DNA of 64,000 bases from Gammaproteobacteria bacterium (GTDB lineage Bacteria > Pseudomonadota > Gammaproteobacteria > UBA4575): the NCBI GenBank assembly GCA_965221955.1, contig CBDCTA010000002.1:32001-96000 (forward strand), given 5' to 3'. Shown here one piece after another: positions 16,976 to 63,226 of this stretch. A program made the position numbers and the translations under genes. Position 1 is the stretch's first letter; every line of letters starts with the position of its first letter. The notes beneath the pieces were generated by a model. The model was not told the origin of the DNA. It saw nothing but the letters and a program-made list of their open reading frames with translations, and did not search any database.

Positions 16976-17002
16976 TAAAGTAGTTCTTTCTAAGGCCGAT
17001 AA
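16976..17002 (+). promoter_or_regulatory. sigma28 (FliA) promoter upstream of the ion channel gene
   Basis: TAAA-N15-GCCGATAA, exact consensus. Confidence 0.8.
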
Positions 17003-17112
17003 ATTAAATAAGAGTTATTGGCTATGGGTAGCAGATTTTCTACCTTTTTCAATAGCTGACTAAATTCGCTGATTCTTATATTTGCTGCATAGGATGCTAA
17101 ATAAAATCATAC

Positions 17113-18159
17113 GTGAGTATTTATGCAATGGAGTATGCATTGAAGAAGATTTTGTCTAGACAGCGCACTTTTGAAATCTTAGAAATAGCTTCATCAGGAG
17201 ACAAAACAAGCCGCTTAGTAGATATTGTTTTGATAGCGCTCATATTACTTAGTGTATTAGCAATTATTCTAGAGTCTGTCCAGGTTATTAATGCTTCATA
17301 TCATGAGTACTTTTTTTGGTTTGAAGTCTTTTCGGTATCAATTTTTACACTTGAATATGTGTTAAGAATTTGGTCATGTATAGATAATCCTTGTAATGAA
17401 AATAATAAAGTAAGTAATTTTAAATTAAGACTTCGTTATAGTGCATCATTTTCTGCTGTCATTGATTTGCTTGCAATATTGCCTTTCTATTTCATGATGC
17501 TTGGTTTGTTTGGTAATGTAGATATGAGGTTCCTGCGCGCTTTCCGTTTACTCAGGATATTTAAGCTGACTAGATATTCTTCTTCTTTTGATATTTTAAC
17601 GACTGTCTTTAAAGAAAATTTGCATGCTTTTGGCGCAGCATTTTTTGTTTTACTAGTTGTAATGTTGTTAGCTGCATCAGGTATGTACTATTTTGAGCAT
17701 GATTCGCAACCTAAAGAGTTTTCTAGCATCATTGCCTCAATGTGGTGGGCGTTTACTACTTTAACAACAGTAGGCTATGGTGATGTCACGCCAATAACAG
17801 CTGGTGGCAAAGCGTTTGGTGCACTTATAACAGTAGTTGGAGTAGGTATGGTTGCGCTTCCTACAGGTATATTGGCTTCAGCCTTTTCTGAGCAATTACG
17901 TTTACGTGCTAATAAATATGAAAATTTGGCGGATAGAGCTTATGAGGATGGTATTTTAACCGCAGACGAAAAAGAAGAACTAGAATCTTTACGCGAAGAG
18001 TTAGGAATTGCAAAAGGTGTAGCAGAACAAATTTTAGCAAATGAAGAAGAAAAGCTTGTGGCACAGAAGATATGTGCAGTTGAAAAGTGTCCGCATTGTG
18101 GAAATAAATTAGCTGATACAGATAAAACAAGCCCAATTACCTTAGTCAAGGCTGTTTAA
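17113..18159 (+). CDS. Voltage-gated K+ channel (6-TM ion transporter)
   Basis: Selectivity filter TTVGYGD; S4 RFLRAFRLLRIFKLTR; C-terminal CPHC. Confidence 0.92.
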   Translation: MSIYAMEYALKKILSRQRTFEILEIASSGDKTSRLVDIVLIALILLSVLAIILESVQVINASYHEYFFWFEVFSVSIFTLEYVLRIWSCIDNPCNENNKVSNFKLRLRYSASFSAVIDLLAILPFYFMMLGLFGNVDMRFLRAFRLLRIFKLTRYSSSFDILTTVFKENLHAFGAAFFVLLVVMLLAASGMYYFEHDSQPKEFSSIIASMWWAFTTLTTVGYGDVTPITAGGKAFGALITVVGVGMVALPTGILASAFSEQLRLRANKYENLADRAYEDGILTADEKEELESLREELGIAKGVAEQILANEEEKLVAQKICAVEKCPHCGNKLADTDKTSPITLVKAV

Positions 18160-48942: not shown

Positions 48943-49086
48943 AGATTATGGTTGTATCTCGCTATATATCTACTAAATACGCATAGGACCTTGTTTTGCC
49001 AATCTAATTAATTGTTAAATTCAAATTATTTTTAAGTATAATGGCTTTTGTCTCAATAAAATAACTACAATAAATTGGAGGCAAAG

Positions 49087-50451
49087 ATGGATAATGAGCT
49101 GGCTAGCTTAGGTGTCATCTTCACAGAATTTTATTACTGGCTTACAGTAGTGATAATGTTTCTTATACATGTAGGTTTTTGCATGTATGAAGTTGCCGTT
49201 TCAAGGCACAAAAATCATATGCATACTTTAATGAAGAACACCATGGTAATCCCATTGGTGACAATCACTTTTTTCTTTTTTGGGTGGTGGATATATTTCG
49301 CATTTCCAAATGGCCCTGGAATTATTGGCGGATTAATTGATGCCCCACATGCAAAAGGATGGAGTCAATTAATGGGACCACATATGGGAGGAAGTGGTGA
49401 TCCTGATGGTTGGGCACGCATTAATGGAGTGTTTTGGGCAGCTTTTCTTTTGTTTTCGTGGACAGCAGCATCGATAGTATCCGGTTCGGTAATAGAAAGA
49501 ATACGTTCAAATGCATTCTGGTTACTTGCAGTATTAATTGGATCTGTATTTTGGATTATTGATGCCGCTTGGGGTTGGCATGCAGATGGTTGGATGGTAA
49601 AGCTGTTGGGCTATCACGACGCTTATGCATCTGGAGTTATCCATGCTATTGCAGGAGGTTTTGCATTAGGTATTTTATTTGTATTGGGGCCGCGAATTGG
49701 GAAGTTTAGAGAAGATGGCACGCCGCGGGTCATCCATCCACGAAATCCTTGGCTCTATACTATTGGTCTTTTTATTCTGTATACAGGATTTTGGGGCTTT
49801 TATGTGGCATGCAACATTCCAATGTGGGACATTCAAAGTGGTGATGGTGTATTTTATTCAGCAACTAATATTTATTTAGCACCCACAACACTTTCTGCTA
49901 TCACTGTTAATTTTTTAATGTCACTTTCGGGTGGCTTATTGATGGGATACATTGTTTCTAAAGGCGATGCATATTGGACATATTCTGCTGGCCTGGCTGG
50001 AATTATTGCAGCGTCTGCAGGAAATGATTTATATCACCCAATACAAGCACTACTAGTTTCAGCTGCTGGTGTCTTCGTTATCTATAAATTACATTACTGG
50101 GTTGAAAGTAAATTTAAAATTGATGATGCAGTAGGTGCAGTAGCAGTTCATGGCTATGCAGGGTTCTATGGAGTGGTGATTGCAGGATTTATTTTATGGG
50201 GATATCCATCATCCCCAAATCCTGAATATGCGAGTGTTAACCCCCTAGGTCAATTTATAGGAGCACTAATAATGTTTGGACTCCTTGGGTTTCTACCTGG
50301 TTGGATATTTGCCAAAATTTTAAATACGTTTGGAGTCTTACGAATTCCTAGAGAGATTGAGTTAATTGGACTTGATACTGCCGAGAATATTCAACGTTTG
50401 AAGGATGAGCAAGAAATTCTAAAAGCTGAACATGAAGCGATAAACAAATAA
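49087..50451 (+). CDS. Ammonium/methylammonium transporter, atypical Amt family
   Basis: GFCMYE, SIVSGSVIER, HDAYASGVIH, LGPRIGKF, IDDAVGAVAVHG; GGAGG RBS. Confidence 0.9.
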   Translation: MDNELASLGVIFTEFYYWLTVVIMFLIHVGFCMYEVAVSRHKNHMHTLMKNTMVIPLVTITFFFFGWWIYFAFPNGPGIIGGLIDAPHAKGWSQLMGPHMGGSGDPDGWARINGVFWAAFLLFSWTAASIVSGSVIERIRSNAFWLLAVLIGSVFWIIDAAWGWHADGWMVKLLGYHDAYASGVIHAIAGGFALGILFVLGPRIGKFREDGTPRVIHPRNPWLYTIGLFILYTGFWGFYVACNIPMWDIQSGDGVFYSATNIYLAPTTLSAITVNFLMSLSGGLLMGYIVSKGDAYWTYSAGLAGIIAASAGNDLYHPIQALLVSAAGVFVIYKLHYWVESKFKIDDAVGAVAVHGYAGFYGVVIAGFILWGYPSSPNPEYASVNPLGQFIGALIMFGLLGFLPGWIFAKILNTFGVLRIPREIELIGLDTAENIQRLKDEQEILKAEHEAINK

Positions 50452-50721: not shown

Positions 50722-51398
50722 CTACATAATTTTTAATATATTATCTATTCTACTCGTAGTGTATGGTCTAAGTATGTCTTGGATTTCAGCTGCAGTGGTA
50801 TTAATTAAATCTATCGAAATGTCACCATGTCCTTGTAATATAAACAGACAATCATTTGTGTCTGTTGTAGTTTTGGTTTTATCGCATTGTCGACAATCAA
50901 GTCTGCACAGAATTTCGTTATCATCGTCGATGTAACAATATTCACCTTTATTAATACTGTTGTGGTTTATTTCTTCCCTAAGGGGATGAATTGTTCGTCA
51001 CCGTTTGTAAAACAAAGTCTCACATTTCCACTGATATGCTTTATATCATGAGCACCGATAGAGATTCTGTTCTTAATTGCAACGTAATTATAAATATCTA
51101 CTAGAAAATTAATGGGTCTCAAAGATTTATGTTTATATAGAATCCTTATTAAACTTTCTGGTGAAGCTAATAATGTTTTATCAGTAATACCAATAGTTTC
51201 ATGTAACTTTCTATATCCTGATATTTTCGGATCACATTCTAAGTTTTCAAGTGTATGATCGTATAATAATTGTGCGTAGAAGCTTTCAATCTTGTTCCGT
51301 ATGTTTTCATCGTGAGTATCGTTTTCAATTCCATGGATTAGTAGAAATGCAACCTTTATCCCTAATGCAGAAACATCATCACATATTTTAAAATTCAT
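50722..51398 (-). CDS. Stand-alone B3/B4 (PheRS editing-like) domain protein; frameshift near 50965
   Basis: SPESL, PINFLVDIYN, IGAHD, FIPLG, continuing in another frame as GEYCYIDDDNEILCRLDCRQCDKT to a stop at 50722. Confidence 0.8.
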
Positions 51399-51424: not shown

Positions 51425-52081
51425 CTAAATTGGGAACATATTTAATAGAGTAGTTGATGAATAAAGCATTTTCATTCCTACTAAAATGGCTAGAGCACCT
51501 GTAAAAACTTTAAAATATTTAAAAGGTATAAATTTAATTTTACGATGCAAAGGCATCGTCATAAGAATAGAAAGGAAAGACATGCAGATAATCAAGCCAA
51601 TACTAAATAAAACAATATAAGTAAACTTTAAATAAATTGAATCAATCGTTGTGGTAAGAAGCGCAACTATTAAACCAGAACCTGCTGCGCCGTGTAATAA
51701 ACCAATACTTAGAGACTTTAAGGTGAGCCGCGTTTTATTGTTATCTTCTATAACCGTGTTTGTCGAATATTTATTTTCTTTTGTAGAAAAAAGGATTTTG
51801 GCTTTTTTAATCACATCGATTCCCATCCAGACAAGTACAGCACCTACTAAAAGCTCAAAAAAGACGAAGACACTTTTATCAATTTCAATCTGTAAACCCA
51901 TCAAAATCATACTGAAGAGTAATAATGTAATTGTATGACCAATTCCCCATATGGCGCCTTGCTTAGCAGTGGCAGATACCGAATTAGATTCTGTAGAAAC
52001 CATTAATACAGCTGCAATATGATCTGGTTCGAAGGCATGACGGATGCCTAAGGTAATGGCTAAGAGTAGTAAGACAGTCAT
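51425..52081 (-). CDS. UreH/NiCoT-like nickel transporter
   Basis: GIRHAFEPDH, WGIGHT, GLLHGAAGSG. Confidence 0.85.
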   Translation of the reverse strand: MTVLLLLAITLGIRHAFEPDHIAAVLMVSTESNSVSATAKQGAIWGIGHTITLLLFSMILMGLQIEIDKSVFVFFELLVGAVLVWMGIDVIKKAKILFSTKENKYSTNTVIEDNNKTRLTLKSLSIGLLHGAAGSGLIVALLTTTIDSIYLKFTYIVLFSIGLIICMSFLSILMTMPLHRKIKFIPFKYFKVFTGALAILVGMKMLYSSTTLLNMFPI

Positions 52082-52088
52082 ATGCTTT

Positions 52089-52898
52089 TTATTTTTTTCT
52101 AATATTGGGTTTGATTCCAACCAATGATTCTCTAATGATCAGCCATGCTTGAAGCATTGTTTTCTTAATTGCATCACCATCAGTTGCTAAAAATTTAATT
52201 ATAATCCCGCAATTATTCGGAAATTCAGAAACACCCCCATAAATTTCTGGATTGGTGCTAATGTATTTTTGCAGTGGTTCAAACAATTCATTATAAGTGC
52301 CTGACCGATTTACAATAGAGATCGTACCCATGCCAATATAATGTTGATTTGCTTGCAAAAAGTTTTTTGGATTAATTAAATAAACATCTTTTGCCAATAA
52401 TTTGTTATTTTCAGAATAAATTTGTAAATAGCTATTTAATTTGTTGAATAAATGATCTTTACCTTTAAGGAAATGAAGTAAGAACGCATCAGAAACGACT
52501 GCGGTACTTGTTTCATCTGCATATACATTAATCGTCGAGCTTAAAGTAGATTTTGGGAATAGAATCAAAGGGTCTGACACGTATTCCGTGTAAGCATAAT
52601 CTTTTGCATTTACATTTACAGTTTGATGAGCAATGCCATTTGTCATTCCATGAACGATGGTTGAAGCCTGTGTTGTTACATGGCTAAATGAATTGGGGTT
52701 TGCTACAACATTCGTAGTTAGATTTTCATTTTCATAGATTCCTCCAGATGCAGATTGAATATAAATATTAGCCATTCCAGGTGGATCATTTTCAAAGTAT
52801 TGCGTTCTGCAAACATGAAAAGGGTAGGAGGCAAATTGATTCTCAAGATAGGTTTTACCATCTACACTCTTGGAGAATTCAAGTGATAAATTACTCAT
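52089..52898 (-). CDS. ureD: Urease accessory protein UreD
   Basis: YPFHV, QSASGGI, HVTTQASTIV, DPLILF. Confidence 0.9.
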   Translation of the reverse strand: MSNLSLEFSKSVDGKTYLENQFASYPFHVCRTQYFENDPPGMANIYIQSASGGIYENENLTTNVVANPNSFSHVTTQASTIVHGMTNGIAHQTVNVNAKDYAYTEYVSDPLILFPKSTLSSTINVYADETSTAVVSDAFLLHFLKGKDHLFNKLNSYLQIYSENNKLLAKDVYLINPKNFLQANQHYIGMGTISIVNRSGTYNELFEPLQKYISTNPEIYGGVSEFPNNCGIIIKFLATDGDAIKKTMLQAWLIIRESLVGIKPNIRKK

Positions 52899-52922: not shown

Positions 52923-53549
52923 TTACTTGAACAATACGTTTTCAATAATATGTTCAGCGACCTCTTTAATCCCATCACCCGTTTTACAATTGGTTAGTAC
53001 CAAAGGTTTATTGCCTCTTACTTGTTGACCTTCTTTAACCATTAAGTCCACATCTGCACCGACATATTTAGCGATATCTATTTTATTAATCACTAGCAAA
53101 TCAGATTGCACAATCCCTGGGCCTCTTTTACGTGGAATGTCATCACCTTCCGAGGTGTCAATAACAAACATCCAATAGTCAACAAGATCTAATGAAAATG
53201 TTGATGCAAGATTATCTCCACCACTTTCTATTAAAATTAAATCAAGGTCTGCAAATTCTTGATCCAAGCGGTCGGCGGCTTGAATATTTAAAGTTGGATC
53301 TTCACGGATAACCGTATGAGGGCATGCGCCTGCTTCTACTGCAACGACACGTTCAGGTGCAAGCAAACCGGATTGCTGCAACCGTTTAGCATCTTCTCTA
53401 GTTACTAAATCATTGGTAACAATTGCAAGCTCATTTCCTCTTTCTTTAAAATATGGAATTAACTGCTCAATTAAAGCCGTTTTGCCTGAACCAACAGGTC
53501 CGCCAATACCTACTCGTGCAGGCCCGTTTGTTTTTGGTACTGCGTTCAT
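52923..53549 (-). CDS. ureG: Urease accessory GTPase UreG
   Basis: [26 protein letters not shown]. Confidence 0.96.
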
Positions 53550-55258
53550 CGGAGCATGTAACGTTGTGTGAGTGGAAGCGTTTTAGCAGGCTCACAAGTT
53601 GCTAACTCACCATCTACAAATACATCAAAGGTTTCAGGATTAACGGTTACCTTAGGACAACAATCATTATGTAGCATATGGCTTTTATTCAGTTTGCGTG
53701 TACCGTGTGCAGGTAAATTCACTTTTTGAAGTTGTAATTTTTCTCCAATATTTGCATCAACTGCTGATTGGTTAACAAAATTTGCACTTAAATGCTGTTT
53801 GGCGTTTCCAAAAGCGCCCCATTGAGGTCGCATTGCAAGTGGTTCGCATGTCATTAATGATGCCGCACTGTCTCCCATTGCTGACCAAACAATAAATCCG
53901 CCTTTAATGATCAATTCTGGTTTAATACCAAAAAACTCCGGCCTCCATAAAACGACATCACCGATTTTTCCTTTCTCTAACGAACCGATATAGTCATCAA
54001 TGCCAAAAGTACGTGCAGCATTAATCGTATACTTTGCGATAAATCGCTTAATTCGTTCATTGTCACCACGTTTGGTAGTTTCTTCCGCAAGTCTTCCACG
54101 TTGGTCTTTCATTTTGCTTGCAAGTTGCCATGTTCGACAAATGACTTCATTAATACGACCCATGCCTTGGCTATCGGATCCCAACATTGAGATTGCACCA
54201 AGATCATGCATTACATCTTCTGCGGCAATGGTTTGTGCACGAATTCGACTTTCTGCAAAGGCAACATCTTCAGGAATAGCAGGATTTAAATGATGACACA
54301 CCATGGTCATATCTAAATGTTCGTCAAACGTGTTAACGGTATATGGATTTGTAGGATTGGTAGAAGAGGGGAGACAATTATATTCGCCTGCTACACGAAT
54401 AATATCGGGAGCATGTCCACCACCTGCACCTTCAGTGTGATACATATGTATGGTTCGACCATTAATGGCAGCTAAAGTGTTTTCCACAAAACCACTTTCA
54501 TTCAATGTATCAGTATGAAGTTGTACTTGATAATCTAAATCATCGGCAACGGATAGGCAGGTATCGATGACCGCAGGCATTGCGCCCCAGTCCTCATGAA
54601 TTTTAAGTCCTATGCAGCCTCCCGCGAGTTGGTCAATGATAGATCGAGGTTTGGATGTATTGCCGCGCCCTAAAAATCCAAAATTAATGGGCCATTGTTC
54701 CGAGGCCTGTAACATCTTGCCTACATTCCAAGCACCGCCACAATCAATACCAACTGTGATGGGACCAAGTGATCCACCAATCATAGTAGTGATGCCCGAA
54801 CTTAATGCGTGTTCGCATAACTGAGCACTATCAAAGTGAACGTGTACATCAATTCCTCCAGGAGTAGCAATTAATCCTTCGGCATCGCGAACCGTTGTTG
54901 CAGCTGCGCAAACTAACTCAGGATGAACGTTGTCCATCGTGGCTGGGTTACCAGCTTTACCTACGCCAACAATTTTTCCTTCTTTAATTCCAATGTCTGC
55001 TTTGACAATCCCTAAAACAGGGTCAATTACTAATGCATTACTAACCAACATATCGAGTGACCCTGCTGCACTGTCATAACCTGGTGTTAAACCTAAGCCG
55101 TCACGTAAAGTTTTGCCGCCACCGTGTAAGCATTCATCTCCAGGCACTGCATAGTCATGTTCTACTTCCGCGAGTAATGATGTATCTCCTAATCGAACAG
55201 CATCTCCCTTTGTAGGTCCATACATTACGGCATATTCTTTTCTAGAAATCTTAATCAT
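53546..55258 (-). CDS. ureC: Urease alpha subunit, divergent paralogue
   Basis: Ni ligands [32 protein letters not shown] flap, SDSQGMGR. Confidence 0.93.
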
Positions 55259-55260: not shown

Positions 55261-55959
55261 TTATGCCCCTTTAAATCCGCGAGTTTTGGCTAAATGTAAA
55301 GCTTCTTGTTTTTTCACTTCACTCGATGTTGAACCATTAGTTAAGCTGTTTAATCCGTAAATTTCTCCAGCGCCTCCAAAATCAACCAATGCGACTTCTT
55401 TGCTTTCTCCTGGTTCAAATCTAACCGCCGTTCCAGCAGGAATATCTAAATGCTTTCCAAATGCATCTTCACGTTTGAAATCTAATCCAGGGTTCACTTC
55501 AAAAAAGTGGAAATGACTTCCTATTTGTACAGGGCGGTCACCTGTATTTAATACTTTCACTTTAATTGATTTTTTACCTTCATTAATTTTTACATCACCT
55601 TCACCAGGTATAATCTCTCCTGGGATAACATCATCCTTTTTAGATTTTTTCTTGCCTGCACGTATAGGTTCATGCACAGTCACCAACTTTGTTCCATCTG
55701 GGAAAGTTGCTTCAACTTGAAGCATATGCATCATATCGCCTACACCTGGCATGACGTCATCCGTGCTGAGTAAGGTTGAACCATAACTAATCAATTCTGC
55801 TACAGAACGTCCTTCACGTGCGCCTTCTAATATTTCATCTGCGATGATAGCTGTAGCTTCAGGATGATTTAGTGCTAAGCCTTTTGCTTTTCGTTTTCTG
55901 GCTAGCTCTGCGGCAGTGTAAATTGTTAATCGTTCTAATTCAGTTGGTGTTAACAGCAT
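55261..55959 (-). CDS. ureAB: Fused urease gamma/beta subunit
   Basis: [24 protein letters not shown] fused to [34 protein letters not shown]. Confidence 0.95.
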
Positions 55960-55980: not shown

Positions 55981-56661
55981 TCAATTAGCAAACAATCTAG
56001 AATCTGCATGTTCATGACGCATCGATGCAATGTCAGCGAACGGTGTAAAAGCATGTATCTCTTCAATTGCAGGAATGGGCCATTGTGTAATTTCTAGTAT
56101 CAGCGATCGAAATGTAGTTAAACTATTTTGGCAATCAATATGTCCAATTAAACCAAGTCGTAAAGCAGCGCCTAAAACTGAAACACAAAAGTTATAAGCG
56201 GACAGGATCAAAATAGATTTTTTAGATAAGCCAAGAGAACTCCAAATCAAACCTTGTGATATGGACAAATGTCCAAGTGCATTATTTTTGTAAATAAGGC
56301 TTAGGTATTTCTGTGCGGCTGCGTTGTCTAATTTACTATATGTAGTTAGTAAGGCATTCCCTAATCTTTTTGAACCTTCTCGTAATTCACTCGCAAGCGT
56401 CATGCATTCAATCAGACGATCCATTTCAATTACTTTTTCTAAATCATTACCATTTTCAATGGTGTGTGCTAAAACGACTCGTTCAAACGGACCCCATCTT
56501 TCTACGAGTTGATTTTCAATGAAATCATTTACGCCCGTAATAGAAGTAACAATTTCATCTTCTTTTAACATTTCCAAACCCCAAGAAAATGACACAGCAC
56601 CTGATGGGAAAAAGCTGTCCCCATGCTGCAAAAGCGTGAGTAATTGTTCTTCTTCAGTCAT
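55981..56661 (-). CDS. ureF: Urease accessory protein UreF
   Basis: GDSFFPSGAVSFSWGLE, C-terminal RHE...RLFAN. Confidence 0.92.
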   Translation of the reverse strand: MTEEEQLLTLLQHGDSFFPSGAVSFSWGLEMLKEDEIVTSITGVNDFIENQLVERWGPFERVVLAHTIENGNDLEKVIEMDRLIECMTLASELREGSKRLGNALLTTYSKLDNAAAQKYLSLIYKNNALGHLSISQGLIWSSLGLSKKSILILSAYNFCVSVLGAALRLGLIGHIDCQNSLTTFRSLILEITQWPIPAIEEIHAFTPFADIASMRHEHADSRLFAN

Positions 56662-57103
56662 GGTCTGCAATAGTAATTTTATTTTGGTCAAAGAAATCTT
56701 TTAATCGATCAAGATAAATTTCTTTTGGGCTATCTAATGCAATATCAAGATGTTTGTTTTCAAATTTAACACGCCAGTGCATATTGCCAGCGAAATAGCC
56801 AAGTTCGATTGCAGTTGAAATATCTTTAGGCTGTAGTGATAACCATTGATCTTCAGCCATTTTTACAACAATAGCGCGATCAGTTTCTAATAATAATACT
56901 GCGCCATTTGATAATTTATTTTCGCGTGAAATAACTACAGCACAATCTGTACCTTGATCCGTTTGAGCGCGGAAACGTCTACGCTGTAAATTAGCGTGAT
57001 CTAAAACAATATATTCGACTTTATTTTGATGTGATAAATCGTGAAGTTGACCTGATAGATTCGAATCATGTGAATGACCAAGGACTTGATTAAGTTGAAT
57101 CAT
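56654..57103 (-). CDS. ureE: Urease accessory protein UreE
   Basis: RRRFRAQTDQG, L.NGAVL, LGYFAGNMHW. Confidence 0.88.
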   Translation of the reverse strand: MIQLNQVLGHSHDSNLSGQLHDLSHQNKVEYIVLDHANLQRRRFRAQTDQGTDCAVVISRENKLSNGAVLLLETDRAIVVKMAEDQWLSLQPKDISTAIELGYFAGNMHWRVKFENKHLDIALDSPKEIYLDRLKDFFDQNKITIADHD

Positions 57104-57422: not shown

Positions 57423-57824
57423 ATGAGTAAAAACATTAAAGAACTAACAGAACGTTTTTATGAGCTCGTAAATAATGGTGGAGAATTATCGGAAGTGTTA
57501 TCTGATGACTTTATATTTGGGATTATGCCTGGTTTTCCTTATGGTGGAGATCAAAATGGATTGCAAGCATCGTTAGAATTTTTTGATAAGCTAGGTGGCC
57601 ACTTTGAGTTTTGGGAAGTAGTCCCACTAAAATATATAGAAGTGGATGACAGTAACATTGTTGTACAAGCATTATATCGAACCAAAGCGACTGAATCAGG
57701 CCAAGATGTTGAACTAGAAACGGTCCATCTTTGGACATCAAAAGATGGAAAGTTAAATACTTATAAACATTACTGTGATACAGCGTTGTTATGTTCAGCG
57801 CTTGGGCATTCAATACCTCATTAA
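57423..57824 (+). CDS. SnoaL/NTF2-like protein
   Basis: GFPYGG, VHLWT.KDGK, HYCDTA. Confidence 0.8.
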   Translation: MSKNIKELTERFYELVNNGGELSEVLSDDFIFGIMPGFPYGGDQNGLQASLEFFDKLGGHFEFWEVVPLKYIEVDDSNIVVQALYRTKATESGQDVELETVHLWTSKDGKLNTYKHYCDTALLCSALGHSIPH

Positions 57825-57849
57825 TTATTTTGTATTTAAGGAAAAATTT

Positions 57850-58758
57850 ATGTGCGGCATAGCAGGCATCATGCTTAAGGACTCATCAGACTATAAAACC
57901 GGTGAGGCTTTAGTGAGTATGTTAAATGGTTGTCAACATCGTGGCCCAGATTCTACGGGCTTTGCTTTATATGGTAGCTCACAAGAAAACACATTGAAAT
58001 TAAGACTATTAGTGGGTCAAGGTGAAATTGGAATAGCAGCAATTACTCGAATTAAACAGTTATTGAAAGAAAATGATGCATCGATAATTGAGGATGAACA
58101 TATTGGAGAAACCTATCGTGCAACGATCAATTACTCTGGCGATATTCAAAAATTTTCCTATGCACTAGAGAATGCAGCAAAAGTTGTTTCAATAGGAAAT
58201 AGTTTAGACATTATTAAAGATGTAGGAAGTGCGGAAGATGTAGATGCTAGTTATGACATCCGAAAATATAAAGGTTCCCATGGTTTGGGGCATGTACGAC
58301 TAGCAACGGAATCTGACGTTAAGCCAGAAGCTGCACATCCTTTTTGGGCCACTGGATTTGCAGATGTTGCTATCGTACACAATGGACAAATCACAAATTA
58401 CTGGAAAATGCGTCGTAGATTAGAACAGCGCGATTATGAATTTCGTACTGATAACGATAGCGAGCTTATTGCAGTTTATCTTGCAGATAAATTATCACAA
58501 GGAATTAAGTTAAAAGATGCACTTAAAACATCAATTGAAGATCTTGACGGAACATTTTCATTTTTAGTTTCTACCAAAGATGAAATTGGATATGCAAAAG
58601 ACCACTTAGCCGTAAAACCTATGGTGATGTATGAAACTGAAGACATGGTGGCGATTGCTTCCGAAGAGGTTTCGCTGAATAAACTATTTCCAGGGCAGGC
58701 CCTTAATACAAAAGAACCACCACCAGGAACCTATAACACATGGTCACGATCGATCTAG
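57850..58758 (+). CDS. Class II glutamine amidotransferase, GlxB/MgsA-like
   Basis: True start MCGIAG (Ntn Cys1), RGPDSTG, HVRLATES, AHPF, VHNGQITNY, TDNDSE. Confidence 0.9.
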   Translation: MCGIAGIMLKDSSDYKTGEALVSMLNGCQHRGPDSTGFALYGSSQENTLKLRLLVGQGEIGIAAITRIKQLLKENDASIIEDEHIGETYRATINYSGDIQKFSYALENAAKVVSIGNSLDIIKDVGSAEDVDASYDIRKYKGSHGLGHVRLATESDVKPEAAHPFWATGFADVAIVHNGQITNYWKMRRRLEQRDYEFRTDNDSELIAVYLADKLSQGIKLKDALKTSIEDLDGTFSFLVSTKDEIGYAKDHLAVKPMVMYETEDMVAIASEEVSLNKLFPGQALNTKEPPPGTYNTWSRSI

Positions 58759-60701
58759 GAAAAACTTCCGTAAGAGAAGGCAATGAAATAATTCGACAAT
58801 GCGGTAAAGACGGAGAAGATGTCGAAGTAATCAATCCGGATGCACGCCATCACATTGGCGTAGGTTTAATTCATCCCATTACAGTAAAAGTAAAAGGTTC
58901 TGCAGGTTATTTCTGTGCAGGATTAAGTGATGCTGCGCACTTTGAAGTGGAGAGTAATGTAGGTTGGGGTGTGGGTGACAACATGTACTCAGGTTCAGTA
59001 ATAGTTGGTGGGAATGCAGGTGCTATTCCTGGAGTTGCCATACGTGGAGCCGATATAGTAATTCGTGGAAACATGGGTTCTCGTGCAGGTCAAGTTATGA
59101 AGGCCGGAACTTTATGTTGTGAAGGTAACGCAAACTTTATGGCTGGTTATATGATGTATGGAGGGCGCATCATTATATTGGGGGATTCAGGCGAAAAAGT
59201 TGGCGAGGATATGTCTGCAGGTGAAATATTCGTAGGTGGGAAAGTTGAAGATTTAGGTTCTGACGCAGAGCTTACAGATATCGATAGTGCAGAAATAGAT
59301 GAAGTAAAGGAATTTTTGGAACGTTATAAAATTCCATTCAAAGGAAGTTTTCAAAAAGTCGTTAATGCAGGAAAGAAACTACGTTACGCAACATCTGAGC
59401 AACAAATGCGTAGCATTCCGTTTTTCTCATTTTCAGGCGCATCTGATTATTGGAATCCAAAAATCCAAGAAGATTTATATATTAAGTCTCAAATTGGACG
59501 TTATCGTATTCGTGGTTATGGTGGTGCACGACCATTACCTCATTTTTCAGACATAGCATTTAAAAAAGATTTATCTATGGCGGGTGGCGATGTAGATGTT
59601 GTTTCTAAAGTAAAAATGCGCACGGAAATCGGCGGCATTAATGGCGCAGAACCTCTTAAATTAAGTATGCCAGTCATGATTGCGCCAATGAGTTATGGTG
59701 CTCTAAGTGCATCAACGAAAAGAGCAATTGGACTCGCTTCTACGTTATCCGATATTGCAGAAAATACAGGTGAAGGGGGTATGAGTGATGCGCAACGTGG
59801 AGCGGCAAAGCAGCTAATCTTTCAAATGCTTGGAGGGAGGCTGGGTTGGAATATTCATGATATGAATCGTGCTGATGGTTTAGAAATTTATATTTCACAA
59901 GGGGCTAAGCCTGGTTTAGGTGGGCAGCTAATGGCTAAAAAAGTAACGCCAGAACTCGCAAAGATAAGAGGAATTCCTGCAGGTATTGATTTACGTTCAC
60001 CTTCTCGTCATCCAGATATTTTAGGTGCTGATGATTTAGTTATTAAAGTAGAAGAATTACGTGAAGCAACAGGTTATCGTTTACCTGTTAGTATCAAGCT
60101 TGGTGCAGGACGTGTCCGTGACGATATAAAAATTGCAGTAAAGGATGGATTTGATTTTGTAGAACTAGATGGTATGCAAGGTTCCACTGGTGCGGGAAGT
60201 GCAGAAGTAATCGACTATGTAGGTATACCGACTTTACCTGCCATTATCGAAGCATTAAATGCATTAGATGAGATTGGAAGGCGTGATGATATACAAATTG
60301 TTCTCATGGGCGGCATACGCGATGGTGTAGATGCGGCTAAAGCATTATGTTTAGGTGCAGATGCTGTAGCGTTAGGGACTTCTACTATTATTGCAGGTGG
60401 ATGTATTGCATGTATGCAGTGTCATGTTGGTCAATGTGTTACTGGTATTGCAACGCAAGATCCTGAACATGAAAAACGTTATGAGCCTGAAGTTGAAGCA
60501 CAAAACATTCATCGTTTCTTAGAAAGTGTTCGTTGGCAGATTGCTACTATTGCAAATGAACTTGGCTATAACGATGTAACACAGTTAAGTCGGGACGATT
60601 TGGTGGCGTTAACGCCCGAAGTTGCAGAGATGACGGGCTTGCCATATGAGCCCCAATATGGAGATGCAGACCTTGATATTAAAGTGAGGGCAGCAGGATG
60701 A
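58740..60701 (+). CDS. Fusion of GXGXG beta-helix (GlxC/MgsB-like) and FMN glutamate-synthase domain (GlxD/MgsC-like)
   Basis: GXGXG repeats; APMSYGALS, NTGEGG, QGAKPGLGGQL, CIACMQCHVGQCVTGIATQD. Confidence 0.88.
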   Translation: MVTIDLGKTSVREGNEIIRQCGKDGEDVEVINPDARHHIGVGLIHPITVKVKGSAGYFCAGLSDAAHFEVESNVGWGVGDNMYSGSVIVGGNAGAIPGVAIRGADIVIRGNMGSRAGQVMKAGTLCCEGNANFMAGYMMYGGRIIILGDSGEKVGEDMSAGEIFVGGKVEDLGSDAELTDIDSAEIDEVKEFLERYKIPFKGSFQKVVNAGKKLRYATSEQQMRSIPFFSFSGASDYWNPKIQEDLYIKSQIGRYRIRGYGGARPLPHFSDIAFKKDLSMAGGDVDVVSKVKMRTEIGGINGAEPLKLSMPVMIAPMSYGALSASTKRAIGLASTLSDIAENTGEGGMSDAQRGAAKQLIFQMLGGRLGWNIHDMNRADGLEIYISQGAKPGLGGQLMAKKVTPELAKIRGIPAGIDLRSPSRHPDILGADDLVIKVEELREATGYRLPVSIKLGAGRVRDDIKIAVKDGFDFVELDGMQGSTGAGSAEVIDYVGIPTLPAIIEALNALDEIGRRDDIQIVLMGGIRDGVDAAKALCLGADAVALGTSTIIAGGCIACMQCHVGQCVTGIATQDPEHEKRYEPEVEAQNIHRFLESVRWQIATIANELGYNDVTQLSRDDLVALTPEVAEMTGLPYEPQYGDADLDIKVRAAG

Positions 60702-63226
60702 GCACAGTTTATGACATTAATCGAATTTTAATGCCTGAGGTGCCGCCTGATTATGAAGATCACACGGCAGATGTAAATTATGTTCCCGCTCCATGTCAGG
60801 TGGCGTGTCCAATCGGCACCGATGCACCTTCTTATATTGGTTATATTTGGGAAGGGAAGTTTGAAGAAGCATTTGAAGCCATAACGGCAACCAATCCTTT
60901 TAGTTCTATTTGTGGTCGTGTGTGCGATGCGCCTTGTGAACCTGCATGTAGGCGAACCGATAGTGATGGACCGTTGCAAATCCGTAATTTAAAACGCTTT
61001 ATCATGGATGAGCTTGGTGCTACCTATGTGCCCAAACCAGTAGAAGTTAAGCAGTCTAAAACTGTAGCCATAGTGGGTTCTGGTCCTGCTGGTCTGACTG
61101 CAGCGAATGATTTGTGTGCTGCTGGGTTTGAAGTACATGTATATGAAATGACAGATCGTTTGGGTGGGATGATGATTTGGGGTATACCTGCATTTAGATT
61201 ACCACCAGATATCATTGAGGAAGATATCAAACGTTTGCTGAAACGTTTCCCAGGTTTACATATTCATTTAAATACAGGGTTAGGTAAAGAAATTACATTA
61301 AATGAGCTTAAAGAAAAGCATGATGCCGTTTTATTAACCATTGGCTCGTGGTGGGGAAAACCAATGGGGATTCCCGGCGAAGAAGGGAATAAAAATGTTG
61401 TTGATGGAGTAAGTTTTTTACGACATGTAAATGCTGGAGAGCGCCCTTCATTACCAGAAACAGTTGTTGTAGTGGGTGGGGGAGATGTTGCTATGGATGC
61501 TTGTCGAGCAGCATTACGATTACCAGGTTGCAAAAATGTAAAAGTTATTTATCGGCGTGGTCCACATGAAATTCCTGCTAGAAAAATTGAGCTTGAAGGA
61601 GCAATTGAGGAAGGGATTGAGTTTATATATTTTACTCAACAAACTGCTGTTGAAGAACAAAACGGAAAATTAATTCTCAAATGTGTTAAGACAAAATTAG
61701 GCGAAAAAGGTGAAGATGAACGACTTCAGCCTGAAATTGAAGAAGGAAGTGAACACGAAATTGAATGTGGAATGGTGATTGCTGCGGTTGGTCAAAAAGG
61801 TGAGTCTGAAGAATTAGCAAAACATAATCTAATGGATGTCGATCGAGTGCAAACAGATTGGGAAACGATGCGCACAAAAGACGCAAAAGTTTTTGCAGCA
61901 GGAGATGGTGCATTTGGAGGTTCTACAATTGTTATGGCTATGCAACATGGGCAACGTGCTGCGTACTATGTGAAATCATTTTTATATGGCATTGAAAACC
62001 CAATCCCCTATCGGACACCTTATCGAACACGGCGAGTACCTGTTGCACAAGATATAAAATGGGAAAAATTTAATCCACACCATCCTGAATTTTTTGGAGT
62101 AGGTGATGATCCTGTAAGTTTTCCTGAAATTGAAGCAACCTACGATTGGGACACTGCGCGCAATGAAGCATCACGGTGCTATCGTTGTGATGCGGAAACG
62201 GGTTCGCCAGACTATTCCGTCGCACATCGTGAAGATATTTTTTCTATGGCACGTACAAATCCAGCAGATCATATGAAGTTGAAATCTATGTTGCGAAAAC
62301 GATTACGTACTCGCACGAATCCTTTTCCTGAAAATCGTGCACCTAATTTAGATGACATTGTATTTTTACCGGCTAACTTATCACGTCTTGTAATTGATCC
62401 GTATCGAGAAGCGTGTAATGTCACTATGAATCTTGCCAATAAGCTAGATATGCAACATCCATTTCTAGTAACGGGTTTTGACAATGAAGCGCAAGAAATA
62501 TTTAAAGCAATGAGTCAAGGATGTGCTATATCGCATACACCTTATTTAGGTAATAAGAACCCTGGTAATGAAACGAGTTGGTTACAACTCAGTTCTAATT
62601 TGTCGGATCAAAACAAAGATACAGCAGGGTATATCTATTATCTAGACAAAGATGAAGAACCTGTACCATTAACACCAAATACAGATCATCAAATAGTTGG
62701 TTTAGCAATTTCTACGCGCATTAACCTTGAACAAGTCATTGCTAGTTCAATTGATAATAAGCATGATATTTTGGTTTTAGATGGAAGCGGTGATCTTTAT
62801 CGTAATTGGTCTGAATTAGAATCTGCACCAGATTTTAGTATATTGCGAGATACTATCCGTATTTTGCGCAAAATGAAAAAAGAAGAGATGATTGACATTG
62901 TTTATTTTGGGGGCGTGCGTTCTGGCACAGATGCAGCAAAATTAATTGGGTTAGGTGTAAATGCAGTGGTGATGGGAGTTTGTGCTGGACTTGCCATGGG
63001 TGGTGAAGTTATTAATAATAATCTTGTGTTTAGCTCAAATTATTCTGACACTGATCGCATTCAAGGATTAGCTAATATTGTTAAAGCAAATTTAGGCGAA
63101 GCATCCATGATGGCGCGTTGTACTGGAAAAACTAATTTATATAATGTAGAGCCGGAAGATTTGAGTGCTGTTACCAAGGAAACATCTAAGGTCACAGGGA
63201 TTCCGCTTTCTGGAGGATGTGTATAA
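60698..63226 (+). CDS. GltD-like Fe-S/FAD/NAD(P)H oxidoreductase fused to a degenerate glutamate-synthase FMN barrel
   Basis: APCQVACP, CGRVC.APCE.AC, GSGPAG, GGGDVAMD, FAAGD, RCYRC; then GGVRSGTDAAK..GLG, SMMARCTGK. Confidence 0.85.
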   Translation: MSTVYDINRILMPEVPPDYEDHTADVNYVPAPCQVACPIGTDAPSYIGYIWEGKFEEAFEAITATNPFSSICGRVCDAPCEPACRRTDSDGPLQIRNLKRFIMDELGATYVPKPVEVKQSKTVAIVGSGPAGLTAANDLCAAGFEVHVYEMTDRLGGMMIWGIPAFRLPPDIIEEDIKRLLKRFPGLHIHLNTGLGKEITLNELKEKHDAVLLTIGSWWGKPMGIPGEEGNKNVVDGVSFLRHVNAGERPSLPETVVVVGGGDVAMDACRAALRLPGCKNVKVIYRRGPHEIPARKIELEGAIEEGIEFIYFTQQTAVEEQNGKLILKCVKTKLGEKGEDERLQPEIEEGSEHEIECGMVIAAVGQKGESEELAKHNLMDVDRVQTDWETMRTKDAKVFAAGDGAFGGSTIVMAMQHGQRAAYYVKSFLYGIENPIPYRTPYRTRRVPVAQDIKWEKFNPHHPEFFGVGDDPVSFPEIEATYDWDTARNEASRCYRCDAETGSPDYSVAHREDIFSMARTNPADHMKLKSMLRKRLRTRTNPFPENRAPNLDDIVFLPANLSRLVIDPYREACNVTMNLANKLDMQHPFLVTGFDNEAQEIFKAMSQGCAISHTPYLGNKNPGNETSWLQLSSNLSDQNKDTAGYIYYLDKDEEPVPLTPNTDHQIVGLAISTRINLEQVIASSIDNKHDILVLDGSGDLYRNWSELESAPDFSILRDTIRILRKMKKEEMIDIVYFGGVRSGTDAAKLIGLGVNAVVMGVCAGLAMGGEVINNNLVFSSNYSDTDRIQGLANIVKANLGEASMMARCTGKTNLYNVEPEDLSAVTKETSKVTGIPLSGGCV

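What the first reader, a model, noticed from the sequence alone, without database searches (positions are those of the whole stretch)
53546..55258. Urease paralogue with intact di-nickel centre but remodelled substrate pocket
Seen: all metal ligands and the MVCHHL flap are kept. The near-invariant loop [20 protein letters not shown] reads [17 protein letters not shown] (about 3 residues shorter, ATT lost), HFICPQ reads HFDSAQ, and SDSQAMGR reads SDSQGMGR. Known: the Ala in that loop and the Ala of SQAMG (K. aerogenes Ala167 and Ala363) line the urea amide site. Inference: the enzyme may hydrolyse a substituted urea or amide such as N-methylurea, dimethylurea or hydroxyurea rather than, or as well as, urea.
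Basis: partly seen in the sequence, partly recalled or inferred. Interest (0 to 1): 0.8.

Follow-up and report, generated by a model that had tools for sequence, protein, structure and literature searches.

The report
Divergent nickel urease with rebuilt pocket loop
This gene encodes the catalytic subunit of a complete nickel-urease gene set from a large, biochemically untested branch of the urease family whose substrate-pocket loop is rebuilt; it probably still splits urea, but its usual neighbours are amide sensors and importers, so its substrate range is open and testable.

Summary
A 570-aa ureC lies on the minus strand at 53546-55258. It keeps every nickel ligand, the carbamylated lysine and the MVCHHL flap. 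It reads [23 protein letters not shown] (3 residues shorter than canonical) and SDSQGMGR.

It is not a paralogue here: it is the only ureC in this 2.69-Mb genome. It sits in a ureE-F-AB-C-G-D-NicO operon.

The substitutions define a monophyletic, tightly conserved clade (76-99% identity) spread over many phyla, including cultured Methylorubrum, Aminobacter and Paracoccus. Of 79 host genomes, 62 carry another ureC homologue.

The evidence pulls two ways.
- **For urea:** dimethylguanidine-hydrolase homologues, which make urea, sit directly upstream in 6 of 80 loci. A UT channel sits upstream in the closest relative. The genome has no other urea-degrading enzyme.
- **For a shifted substrate:** none of 34 neighbouring UrtA-like binding proteins keeps the urea-binding Asn246. 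They match the acetamide sensor AmiC. amiR or amiE flank 28 of 80 loci and none of 20 canonical loci.

Best reading (0.55): a true urease of a distinct lineage, possibly with a broadened amide range. This scan met the same clade before on other DNA. No characterised member was found.

The parts
53546..55258 (-). ureC, urease alpha subunit of the short-loop 'FDSA / GPITVGID / SQGMG' clade (570 aa)
   Evidence: ORF. TIGR01792 821 bits against a cut-off of 680. 686 bits to K. aerogenes UreC. AF2 model TM 0.93-0.94 to all solved ureases.
54821..54844 (-). HVHFDSAQ: Ni ligands His139/His141, followed by the clade-specific Asp-Ser-Ala in place of Ile-Cys-Pro
54728..54778 (-). Remodelled pocket loop [17 protein letters not shown], 3 residues shorter than canonical [20 protein letters not shown]
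   Evidence: AF2 pLDDT is below 50 at residues 165-172.
54584..54610 (-). GLKIHEDWG: carbamylated Lys219, substrate-polarising His221 and Asp223, all kept
54287..54313 (-). Mobile-flap motif DMTMVCHHL (Cys321, His322), kept
54155..54178 (-). SDSQGMGR: Ni ligand Asp362 kept; Gly365 replaces the invariant Ala363 (K. aerogenes numbering)
55261..55959 (-). ureAB, fused gamma/beta small subunit (232 aa)
   Evidence: NF009671 348.9 bits against a cut-off of 243
55981..56691 (-). ureF accessory protein
   Evidence: Pfam UreF 89.7 bits
56654..57103 (-). ureE nickel metallochaperone
   Evidence: NF009752 182.9 bits against a cut-off of 162
52923..53549 (-). ureG GTPase
   Evidence: TIGR00101 242.5 bits against a cut-off of 204
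52089..52898 (-). ureD accessory protein
   Evidence: Pfam UreD 92.9 bits
51425..52120 (-). NicO-type nickel permease, last conserved gene of the operon in close relatives
   Evidence: Pfam NicO 38.2 bits. Same position in L003 and L004.
50967..51398 (-). B3_4-domain ORF that follows the permease in relatives; truncated here (143 aa against 221 aa)
49075..50451 (+). Ammonium transporter (Amt) next to the operon; context only
   Evidence: Pfam Ammonium_transp 185.6 bits

Best explanation
This is a working nickel urease of a distinct, widely transferred lineage. Shown: the fused gamma/beta subunit and the alpha subunit are present, and the alpha subunit keeps the full di-nickel site (His139, His141, carbamyl-Lys219, His248, His274, Asp362), the substrate-polarising His221/Asp223, flap Cys321/His322 and Arg338. 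UreD, UreF, UreG and UreE are encoded beside it, followed by a NicO-type permease. Inferred: these proteins load nickel, and the enzyme hydrolyses urea to ammonia and carbamate. In this organism it is the only route for urea nitrogen. Substrate would arrive from outside through the UT-family channel and/or the Urt-like ABC importer encoded 17-40 kb away on the same contig. In other hosts the same enzyme sits behind urea-producing dimethylguanidine hydrolase homologues, or inside AmiC/AmiR-controlled amide/urea uptake operons. Also inferred: the rebuilt loop after strand 2, the Asp-Ser-Ala after the HxH motif and Gly365 are lineage-specific adaptations (affinity, flap dynamics or a broadened acceptance of small amides), not a loss of urea activity.
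For: - **Catalytic inventory:** intact by alignment to K. aerogenes UreC and invariant across 28 aligned sequences. TIGR01792 scores 821 bits against a cut-off of 680.
- **Maturation genes:** a complete ureE-F-AB-C-G-D set plus a NicO permease.
- **Fold:** TM 0.93-0.94 and rmsd 2.5-2.8 A to every solved urease.
- **No alternative urea enzyme in the genome:** this is the sole ureC. There is no urea carboxylase; the best hit is 503 bits against a cut-off of 1304.
- **Variant-only relatives:** three closed genomes of the same family (G098, G085, G087) carry only this type.
- **Urea channel:** a UT-family gene (Pfam UT 192.8 bits) lies about 560 bp upstream of ureE on the same strand in the 99%-identical relative L003.
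- **Urea-producing neighbours:** tandem ureohydrolase pairs sit directly upstream and co-directional in 6 of 80 variant loci and 0 of 20 canonical loci; five of the six keep hypA and four of these also hypB. L021's second gene scores 559.6 bits to metformin hydrolase subunit B, 8ryi_C.
- **Published chemistry:** relatives of that enzyme at 70-93% identity hydrolyse dimethylguanidine to dimethylamine plus urea and are reported to cluster with urease genes (PMC11399263, passages).
- **Same pocket in those loci:** the UreC proteins in these six loci are 82-85% identical to the window's and carry the same pocket motifs.
Against: - **Non-urea binding proteins:** none of the UrtA-family binding proteins within 8 kb of variant ureC has the urea pocket. 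Asn246 is present in 0 of 34 informative ORFs and Gln144 in 2 of 31. Beside canonical ureC the full urea signature is present in 10 of 10 (own family) and 8 of 9 (other genomes). Mutating Asn246 or Gln144 reduces or abolishes urea binding in UrtA (PMC10392092).
- **Resemblance to an amide sensor:** the variant-linked proteins align with the acetamide sensor AmiC.
- **Amide-gene neighbours:** amiR lies within 8 kb in 20 of 80 variant loci and amiE in 19 of 80, against 0 of 20 canonical loci for each.
- **Operons without an amidase:** in cultured Aminobacter the array amiC-like/ANTAR/binding protein/urtBCDE/ureEFABCGD contains no amidase, so the variant enzyme is the only hydrolase there.
- **Coexistence:** 62 of 79 host genomes keep another ureC homologue, which argues against simple redundancy.
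- **Frozen changes:** motifs that are near-invariant in canonical ureases are changed and then fixed across the clade.
- **No characterised member:** none was found (and the literature searches listed under Tried and rejected).
Confidence: 0.55

Rival explanations
1. The clade is primarily a nickel-dependent short-chain amide hydrolase (formamide, acetamide or an N-methyl amide), fed by an FmdD/AmiC-type amide importer and switched on by an AmiC/AmiR amide sensor. Urea would be at most a side substrate.
For: - **Partner pockets:** binding proteins and sensors carry the AmiC-type pocket. Val replaces Asn246 in 33 of 34 and Ile in 1; a hydrophobic residue replaces Gln144 in 29 of 31.
- **Neighbour enrichment:** amiR, amiE and a CbbQ-like amiB are enriched at 20, 19 and 15 of 80 variant loci, against 0 of 20 canonical loci.
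- **Sole hydrolase:** amiR is present without an amiE hit within 8 kb in nine of the 80 loci, among them L038 and L044. In the gene maps of L038, L042 and L044 and on the Aminobacter plasmids no amidase gene is seen, so the enzyme is the only hydrolase there.
- **Sister clade context:** a 60%-identical sister-clade cluster on Aminobacter SR38 pSR3 lies beside formate-THF ligase, folD and gcvT, as expected if formate were a product.
- **No competing formamidase:** the own genome has no FmdA-type formamidase.
- **Chemical precedent:** ureases are known to turn over formamide and acetamide slowly (Dixon et al. 1980, seen only as a reference title in PMC7433671).
Against: - **Urea-producing neighbours:** the dimethylguanidine hydrolase homologues upstream in 6 of 80 loci make urea, not an amide.
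- **Urea contacts kept:** every residue that binds both urea nitrogens through backbone carbonyls or His/Asp is retained, and the flap is unchanged.
- **Amidase already present:** many clusters already carry AmiE for C2-C3 amides.
- **Transporter precedent:** the Methylophilus Fmd transporter of this type is reported to take up urea as well as amides (review PMC10781810 citing Mills 1998, passages).
- **Size argument (inference):** Ala-to-Gly enlarges the pocket, which does not fit a smaller substrate such as formamide.
Confidence: 0.27
2. One reading: the enzyme hydrolyses N-substituted ureas (N-methylurea, dimethylureas, hydroxyurea) and releases methylated amines.
For: - **Methylamine-pathway neighbours:** gmaS-like type III glutamine synthetase genes lie within 8 kb in 7 of 80 variant loci and 0 of 20 canonical loci.
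- **Plasmid context:** glnT-glxBCD lie directly upstream on the Acinetobacter sp. NCu2D-2 plasmid.
- **Own contig:** it carries a gmaS-like (type III glutamine synthetase) gene, split glutamate-synthase-like genes of the mgsABC type, and sarcosine-oxidase-like genes.
- **Host bias:** many carriers are methylotrophs, including Methylorubrum, Methylophaga, Aminobacter, Ancylobacter and Paracoccus.
- **Pocket size (inference):** two Ala-to-Gly changes would enlarge the pocket slightly.
Against: - **Simpler explanation for the C1 genes:** dimethylguanidine hydrolase releases dimethylamine plus unsubstituted urea, which accounts for them.
- **Weak association:** methylamine genes flank under a tenth of the loci.
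- **No known supply:** no natural source or importer of methylureas is evident in any context examined.
- **Ambiguous substitution:** the Ala167-to-Gly assignment depends on the alignment.
Confidence: 0.1
3. The protein is catalytically dead, or uses a metal other than nickel, as the iron urease UreA2B2 of Helicobacter mustelae does.
For: It often coexists with a canonical urease. 3qga, the iron urease, is an equally good structural match.
Against: All ligands are intact. A full nickel-insertion set and a nickel permease are co-operonic. The clade is under strong purifying selection: 76-99% identity across phyla, with short branches. It is the sole urease in closed genomes.
Confidence: 0.03

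Closest known systems
Canonical bacterial nickel ureases (K. aerogenes UreABC, S. pasteurii UreABC)
   Same: About 55% identical. Same fold (TM 0.93-0.94), same Ni ligands, carbamyl-lysine, His219/Asp221, Cys-His flap and Arg336, and the same UreDEFG maturation genes.
   Different: The pocket loop is 3 residues shorter, with the ATT(C)TPGP core replaced. Ile-Cys-Pro after HxH becomes Asp-Ser-Ala, and Ala363 becomes Gly. There are 41 clade-diagnostic positions in clusters at residues 43-51, 122-125, 143-147, 163-174, 414-418 and 464-479. The gamma and beta subunits are fused. The gene order is ureE-F-AB-C-G-D. It pairs with AmiC-type rather than UrtA-type binding proteins.
Helicobacter pylori UreA/UreB (two-chain urease)
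   Same: Fused gamma/beta small subunit plus an alpha subunit; 54% identity; NF010592 hit for the fused subunit.
   Different: The fused subunit scores 293 bits, below the 353-bit cut-off of the Helicobacter equivalog. The Helicobacter enzyme has not been shown to carry this pocket remodelling. No solved urease is more than 56% identical to the window's protein. The gene order and the ecology also differ.
Helicobacter mustelae UreA2B2 (second urease with altered metal use)
   Same: A precedent for a second, specialised urease kept beside a canonical one; a comparable structural match (3qga).
   Different: As recalled, UreA2B2 is an iron enzyme that needs no accessory genes. The cluster here carries ureDEFG and a nickel permease.
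DmgH/MefH (dimethylguanidine/metformin hydrolase) operons with downstream urease in Aminobacter
   Same: hypA and/or hypB plus two tandem ureohydrolase genes directly upstream of this urease type in 6 of 80 loci. The published DmgH gives dimethylamine plus urea and clusters with urease (PMC11399263).
   Different: The window's own genome has no ureohydrolase-family gene. I could not check which urease type lies downstream in the published Aminobacter chromosomes.
Pseudomonas aeruginosa amiEBCRS amidase operon and Methylophilus methylotrophus fmdCABDEF amide/urea uptake system
   Same: An AmiC-like sensor (317.6 bits to 1pea), an AmiR (AmiR_N + ANTAR), AmiE (714 bits), a CbbQ-like AmiB and UrtBCDE-like permeases flank this urease type. 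The Fmd system is reported to import short-chain amides and urea (PMC10781810).
   Different: Those systems feed nitrilase- or acetamidase-family amidases, not a urease-family enzyme. I found no report of AmiC/AmiR controlling a urease.

Membership tests
Nickel urease alpha subunit (EC 3.5.1.5; NCBIfam TIGR01792) | Full-length match above the curated equivalog cut-off | tested here: met
   821.1 bits against a cut-off of 680; NF009686 866.6 bits against 354
Nickel urease alpha subunit (EC 3.5.1.5; NCBIfam TIGR01792) | Di-nickel ligands His134, His136, carbamyl-Lys217, His246, His272, Asp360 (K. aerogenes numbering) | tested here: met
   All aligned and identical; invariant in 28 sequences
Nickel urease alpha subunit (EC 3.5.1.5; NCBIfam TIGR01792) | Catalytic and substrate-polarising residues His219, Asp221, flap Cys319/His320, Arg336 | tested here: met
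   KIHEDWG, MVCHHL and ESRIR are kept
Nickel urease alpha subunit (EC 3.5.1.5; NCBIfam TIGR01792) | Canonical pocket motifs [12 protein letters not shown] (Ala167) and SDSQAMGR (Ala363), whose carbonyls bind the urea nitrogens | tested here: not met
   The loop is rebuilt and 3 residues shorter, and Ala363 is Gly. The role of these carbonyls is taken from PMC7433671. The backbone carbonyls may persist; the geometry is not testable here.
Nickel urease alpha subunit (EC 3.5.1.5; NCBIfam TIGR01792) | Urease alpha fold (TIM barrel plus beta domain) | tested here: met
   AF2 pLDDT 82.7, pTM 0.90. Foldseek TM 0.93-0.94 to K. aerogenes, S. pasteurii, H. pylori and jack bean ureases.
Nickel urease holoenzyme and maturation system | Gamma and beta subunits plus UreD, UreF, UreG, UreE encoded alongside | tested here: met
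   Fused ureAB, ureE and ureG are above their cut-offs; ureD and ureF are found by Pfam
Nickel urease holoenzyme and maturation system | Hydrolysis of urea as the physiological reaction | not testable with these tools
   Only indirect evidence. For: the DmgH link, the UT channel and sole-urease status. Against: amide-type partner proteins.
Urea-uptake-coupled urease regulon (UrtABCDE + urease) | Partner binding protein with the UrtA urea pocket (Trp120, Ser122, Tyr141, Gln144, Glu146, Tyr190, Asn246, Ser274) | tested here: not met
   The own genome's three UrtA-like proteins score 357, 320 and 284 bits against a cut-off of 492.75 and read YSY[CL]EY[WY]VT. 0 of 34 variant-linked proteins have Asn246.
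Short-loop urease-alpha clade (defined here) | HFDSA + [12 protein letters not shown][CS]GG + SDSQGMGR, and monophyly | tested here: met
   SH-aLRT 99 with all columns and 96 with the trait columns removed. Motifs confirmed.

The most novel reading that the evidence does not exclude
The urease family is not mono-functional. On this reading, this clade and its sister short-loop clades are nickel amidohydrolases that have diversified onto non-urea or broader substrates: small amides such as formamide or acetamide, or N-methylated amides and ureas. The sister clades keep the di-nickel centre but vary the flap and the residue after HED. Each has co-evolved with an AmiC-type sensor and an FmdD-type importer whose pockets have lost the two residues that bind one urea NH2. 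The window's enzyme would then be a generalist urea/short-chain-amide hydrolase, or an amide specialist, that databases uniformly mislabel as 'urease subunit alpha'.
Probability: 0.3. Interest if true: 0.85.

Novelty: new variant of a known kind. Interest (0 to 1): 0.6.

Why it matters
Urease is a textbook single-substrate enzyme, and ureC is used as the marker gene for urea use in oceans, soils and symbioses. All members examined are annotated plainly as urease, yet no member has been assayed.

If it is an ordinary urease, it shows that pocket motifs thought near-invariant can be replaced wholesale. It also gives a natural test set for how the loop and flap tune catalysis.

If its range is shifted towards amides, ureC-based inferences of urea cycling would need correcting. 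That would include sponge-associated and marine MAGs like this one. A new nickel amidase chemistry would also emerge. Either outcome is directly testable with cultured, harmless carriers.

Tried and rejected
- **Riboswitch or other RNA control:** Rfam at gathering thresholds found nothing in the window. In eight related loci it found only tRNAs and two 5_ureB_sRNA matches inside ureC. No guanidine or other riboswitch was found.
- **50%-cluster representative search:** ureases are too conserved for this to separate the clade; the best representative is 58% identical. It was useful only for finding deeper short-loop and degenerate homologues.
- **Structure:** the AF2 model confirms the fold but returns no coordinates. 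Pocket geometry, the position of the Ala167-equivalent carbonyl, and whether the three low-confidence diagnostic segments (44-53, 165-172, 461-482) touch each other could not be measured.
- **Complementary distribution:** within the own family (56 genomes), variant and canonical types co-occur about as often as independence predicts: 10 observed against about 9 expected from 17 and 30 of 56. This shows neither replacement nor obligatory pairing.
- **Literature:** searches for urease + methylurea/paralog, urease-like/UreC/substrate specificity, ureAB/ureC2/second urease, Methylobacterium + urease, ANTAR/AmiR + urease and the motif strings themselves (0 papers) found no description or assay of this clade. 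PMC5017803 only notes about three urease copies in M. extorquens-group genomes. The FmdD search was swamped by an unrelated acronym.
- **Rejected idea, urea from within the cell:** the own genome has no ureohydrolase-family gene, so internally produced urea from guanidino compounds does not explain this copy.
- **Rejected idea, the neighbouring glutamate-synthase-like genes as a conserved partner:** they recur in only 1 of 80 loci.
Full report
**What is there.** The feature is real, but it lies on the minus strand. ORF 53546-55258 (-) encodes a 570-aa protein, and the + strand reading is full of stops.

It is the fourth gene of a compact minus-strand operon:
- ureE (56654-57103)
- ureF (55981-56691)
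- a fused gamma/beta ureAB (55261-55959)
- ureC
- ureG (52923-53549)
- ureD (52089-52898)
- a NicO-type nickel permease (51425-52120)
- a B3_4-domain ORF

An ammonium transporter lies on one side. A divergently transcribed, split glutamate-synthase-like trio lies on the other. The window has 36% G+C.

**Checking the observation.** UreC scores 821 bits on the NCBIfam urease-alpha equivalog (cut-off 680) and 686 bits against K. aerogenes UreC.
- In the K. aerogenes alignment His134, His136, Lys217, His219, Asp221, His246, His272, Cys319, His320, Arg336 and Asp360 are all conserved.
- HWICPQ is replaced by HFDSAQ, and SDSQAMGR by SDSQGMGR.
- [20 protein letters not shown] is replaced by [17 protein letters not shown], which is three residues shorter.

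HMMER keeps Thr165 and Cys170 aligned, which makes Ala167 a Gly. MAFFT shifts the gap and makes it a Val. That single assignment is therefore ambiguous.

Their backbone carbonyls accept hydrogen bonds from the Ni(2)-bound urea nitrogen, and Ala366/Gly280 (S. pasteurii numbering) hold the distal nitrogen (PMC7433671, passages read). Because these are backbone contacts, Ala-to-Gly alone does not delete them.

**Not a paralogue here.** A family search of the whole 2.69-Mb assembly (29 contigs, 96.6% complete) finds this ureC only. The genome also lacks three other relevant enzymes:
- urea carboxylase
- any ureohydrolase-family gene
- an FmdA-type formamidase

**A large, frozen clade.** The word-index search hit its ceiling of 8000 proteins. 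The best 120 are 84-98% identical. Of these, 119 show [12 protein letters not shown][CS]GG, 119 show SDSQGMGR and all 120 show MVCHHL; the remaining sequence lacked the anchor my script used.

In one-genome-per-species contigs, 531 stretches encode a relative. The best 80 loci (75-99% identity) all carry the motif set; for L017 one pattern failed, but SDSQGMGR is present.

Hosts span Gamma-, Alpha- and Betaproteobacteria, Chloroflexota, Actinomycetota and Bacillota. They include cultured Methylorubrum/Methylobacterium, Paracoccus limosus, Amorphus coralli and Pontibaca salina. On plasmids or chromids the hosts include Aminobacter, Shinella, Ancylobacter and Acinetobacter sp. NCu2D-2. Every named database copy is annotated 'urease subunit alpha'.

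For the tree I used 53 of 88 aligned rows. I left out eight degenerate homologues that have lost metal ligands and thinned near-duplicates.
- The clade is one branch: SH-aLRT 99, and 96 after removing 64 trait columns.
- It is sister to other short-loop groups (L097/L098/L100, then L101/L105/L109/L120).
- It is separate from a canonical plus Yersinia-like clade.
- Deeper short-loop families (P0123, P0126, P0127, P0129, P0130, P0134, P0147) also keep the metal ligands but vary the flap.

Forty-one positions distinguish 28 variant rows from 36 canonical rows. They cluster at residues 43-51, 122-125, 143-147, 163-174, 365, 414-418 and 464-479.

An AlphaFold2 model has mean pLDDT 82.7 and pTM 0.90. 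It superposes on every solved urease at TM 0.93-0.94 and 48-56% identity. Confidence drops below 50 at 44-53, 165-172 and 461-482, which lie within or overlap the three largest diagnostic clusters. No solved urease belongs to the clade.

**Coexistence with canonical ureases.** Of 79 genomes behind the 80 loci, 17 hold only this type and 62 hold at least one more ureC homologue. I fetched 40 of those extra copies:

| Type of extra copy | Number of 40 |
|---|---|
| Canonical | 28 |
| Yersinia-like | 2 |
| Other short-loop clades | 10 |

L062 carries a variant and a canonical ureC about 7.5 kb apart.

In the window's own order (one family, 56 genomes) the distribution is as follows:

| Urease content | Genomes of 56 |
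|---|---|
| Variant only (including closed genomes G098, G085, G087) | 7 |
| Variant and canonical | 10 |
| Canonical only | 20 |
| Neither | 19 |

This is about what independent assortment would give.

**Partner proteins differ systematically.** Published work on Prochlorococcus UrtA defines the urea pocket as Trp120, Ser122, Tyr141, Gln144, Glu146, Tyr190, Asn246 and Ser274. Asn246 and Gln144 bind one urea nitrogen, and mutating either reduces or abolishes binding (PMC10392092, passages).

| Binding proteins examined | Result |
|---|---|
| Beside canonical ureC, own family (7-8 kb away, 540-576 bits) | 10 of 10 read WSYQEYYNS |
| Beside canonical ureC, 20 other genomes (9 found) | 8 of 9 have Gln144 and Asn246 |
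| Within 8 kb of variant ureC (35 ORFs in 27 loci) | Asn246 in 0 of 34 informative (Val 33, Ile 1); Gln144 in 2 of 31 |

All seven variant-only genomes of the family lack a canonical UrtA.

P. aeruginosa AmiC, the acetamide sensor, aligns as Y-S-Y-P-E-Y-Y-V-T. The variant-linked proteins are therefore AmiC/FmdD-like.

The window's genome has three such proteins on the same contig:
- a Urt-like importer whose permeases and ATPases pass the UrtBCDE cut-offs, but whose binding protein scores 320 bits against 492.75
- a binding-protein-like domain next to a hybrid histidine kinase
- an AmiC-like/AmiR/AmiE/CbbQ-like cluster next to a UT-family channel

**Neighbourhood statistics.** Counts are for genes within 8 kb of ureC, in 80 variant loci (49 with 15 kb or more held) against 20 canonical loci:

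| Neighbouring gene | Variant loci (of 80) | Canonical loci (of 20) |
|---|---|---|
| amiR | 20 | 0 |
| amiE | 19 | 0 |
| CbbQ-like amiB | 15 | 0 |
| gmaS-like | 7 | 0 |
| Tandem ureohydrolase pair | 6 | 0 |
| UT channel | 1 | 0 |

These loci are related to one another, so the contrasts are descriptive rather than independent tests.

Three architectures recur:
1. **Amide sensor plus importer plus urease.** The array is an amiC-like gene, an ANTAR (AmiR) gene, a binding-protein gene and urtBCDE, then ureEFABCGD with hupE or a NicO gene. It has no amidase in the Aminobacter plasmids, and L038, L042 and L044 show the same importer-urease array with no amidase seen, with the sensor pair elsewhere or not visible in the stretch held.
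2. **The same, with amiE embedded or adjacent** (L003, L058, L062).
3. **Ureohydrolase pair upstream.** hypA and/or hypB plus two tandem ureohydrolases lie directly upstream of ureE (L016, L018, L021, L025, L027, L037).

In the 99%-identical closed relative (L003) everything is contiguous. amiB-amiE-amiR-amiC read in one direction. UT, then ureEFABCGD-NicO-B3_4, then the binding protein and urtBCDE read in the other.

**The urea link.** L021's second ureohydrolase scores 559.6 bits (E = 2e-167, full length) against metformin hydrolase subunit B. The published study shows four relevant things (PMC11399263, abstract and passages):
- The more widespread predecessor, DmgH, hydrolyses dimethylguanidine to dimethylamine and urea.
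- A 70%-identical Hyphomicrobium homologue does the same.
- A urease is encoded downstream.
- The authors use the clustering with urease to argue for the native substrate.

In my six loci that urease is this variant type, 82-85% identical to the window's enzyme and with the same pocket motifs. This is the strongest evidence that the remodelled pocket still handles urea. It also explains the methylamine-pathway neighbours without invoking methylureas.

**Weighing.** Evidence for urea:
- the intact catalytic machinery
- the DmgH link
- the UT channel
- sole-urease status in closed genomes
- a literature statement that Fmd-type importers take up 'short-chain amides and urea' (PMC10781810, passages)

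Evidence for a shifted or broadened substrate:
- frozen replacement of near-invariant pocket motifs
- routine coexistence with a canonical urease plus UrtA module
- exclusive pairing with AmiC-type pockets, including operons where this enzyme is the only hydrolase
- a sister clade beside formate-assimilation genes

My probabilities are:

| Reading | Probability |
|---|---|
| Urea-hydrolysing urease of a distinct lineage, possibly generalist | 0.55 |
| Primarily an amide hydrolase | 0.27 |
| Inactive or non-nickel | 0.03 |

**Novelty.** I found no assay, structure or description of this clade. The searches were made, plus the PDB searches. One paper merely counts about three urease copies in M. 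extorquens-group genomes (PMC5017803, passages). Supplements were not read.

Earlier notes of this scan describe the same lineage on other DNA and reached a similar reading. I re-derived that reading independently. I added the tree, the binding-pocket contrast, the neighbourhood controls and the DmgH link.

I class the feature as a new variant of a known kind, with a testable chance that the urease family is functionally broader than assumed.

Noticed in passing
window 50967-51398 (-): The B3_4-domain ORF that follows the nickel permease is 143 aa here but 221 aa in the 99%-related locus L003. It is 57% identical over the shared 143 residues and then hits a stop. This may be a truncation, a frameshift or an assembly error. 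The role of a B3_4 domain at the end of a urease operon is unexplained.
   Followed up: partly
window 57423-63226 (+): A SnoaL-like gene and a split glutamate-synthase-like trio are transcribed divergently from ureE. The trio is a class-II amidotransferase (327 aa), a GXGXG+FMN fusion (653 aa) and a GltD-like protein with an extra FMN_dh-like tail (842 aa). The set recurs in only 1 of 80 related loci.
   Followed up: partly
L092 (G000:C2:112001-130000), 1094-10083: A complete N-methylglutamate-pathway-like block lies about 25-35 kb from the urease. It comprises mgsA/B/C-like genes, a type III glutamine synthetase/gmaS (678 bits) and soxA/soxB-like genes. It is followed by a UT-family channel and an amiC-amiR-amiE-amiB cluster.
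   Followed up: partly
L091 (G000:C2:96001-112000), 12034-15934: A UrtA-like binding-protein ORF with the amide-type pocket (YSYCEYWVT) lies directly upstream of a hybrid histidine kinase. A NarL/ErdR-type response regulator sits beside them. Together they are a candidate periplasmic amide/urea-sensing two-component system. The ~280-bit UrtA-like class is present in many variant-urease genomes of the family.
   Followed up: no
L062:11377-14507; also L058, L053, L051, L036: A CbbQ/NorQ-like AAA+ gene ('amiB-like') lies downstream of ureD. In L062 and L058 it is followed at once by a conserved ORF of about 767 aa with no Pfam or NCBIfam hit; the two are also adjacent in L053. That ORF family occurs in 13 of 80 loci. 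It may be a CbbO/NorD-like partner, but some copies could be ORF-calling artefacts in high-GC DNA.
   Followed up: partly
L175 (Aminobacter sp. SR38 plasmid pSR3), 904-19752: A sister short-loop urease cluster (60.5% identical alpha subunit, fused ureAB, ureG/D/F) has its own AmiC-like/ANTAR pair and an ABC importer. It lies beside gcvT, formate-THF ligase and folD, which hints at a formate-yielding substrate.
   Followed up: no
L096, L097, L098, L100, L101, L105, L109, L119, L120: These further urease-alpha homologues keep all metal ligands. Their loops and flaps differ (for example MVAHRL, MSSHLL, MLCHSL, PMTMLAHML), and they read HED[YFIL]G instead of HEDWG. Several occur in genomes that also hold the variant and a canonical urease.
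   Followed up: partly
L143-L145 and L160 (UrtA-like, 540-552 bits): A UrtA paralogue class passes the TIGR03407 cut-off, so it would be named a urea-binding protein. Yet it reads WSYFEYWVS at the pocket positions and lacks Gln144 and Asn246.
   Followed up: no
L042:8154-8449 and L051:8150-8454 (-): Rfam 5_ureB_sRNA (a Helicobacter antisense RNA model) matches antisense to the 5' part of variant ureC at 42-51 bits, just over the gathering score of 40. This is probably conservation of the coding sequence. There is no such hit in the window.
   Followed up: no
G022:C99:1299-3002: A third ureC-like copy (61% identical, short-loop type) carries an in-frame TGA. The same MAG also has two variant copies.
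   Followed up: no
L152 (Acinetobacter sp. NCu2D-2 plasmid), 6129-17225: On a mobilizable 310-kb plasmid, glnT-glxBCD (methylamine pathway) and a lone UrtA-like gene directly precede the variant ure genes. An Amt and sarcosine-oxidase-like genes lie upstream, and IS30 and IS5 elements flank the region.
   Followed up: no
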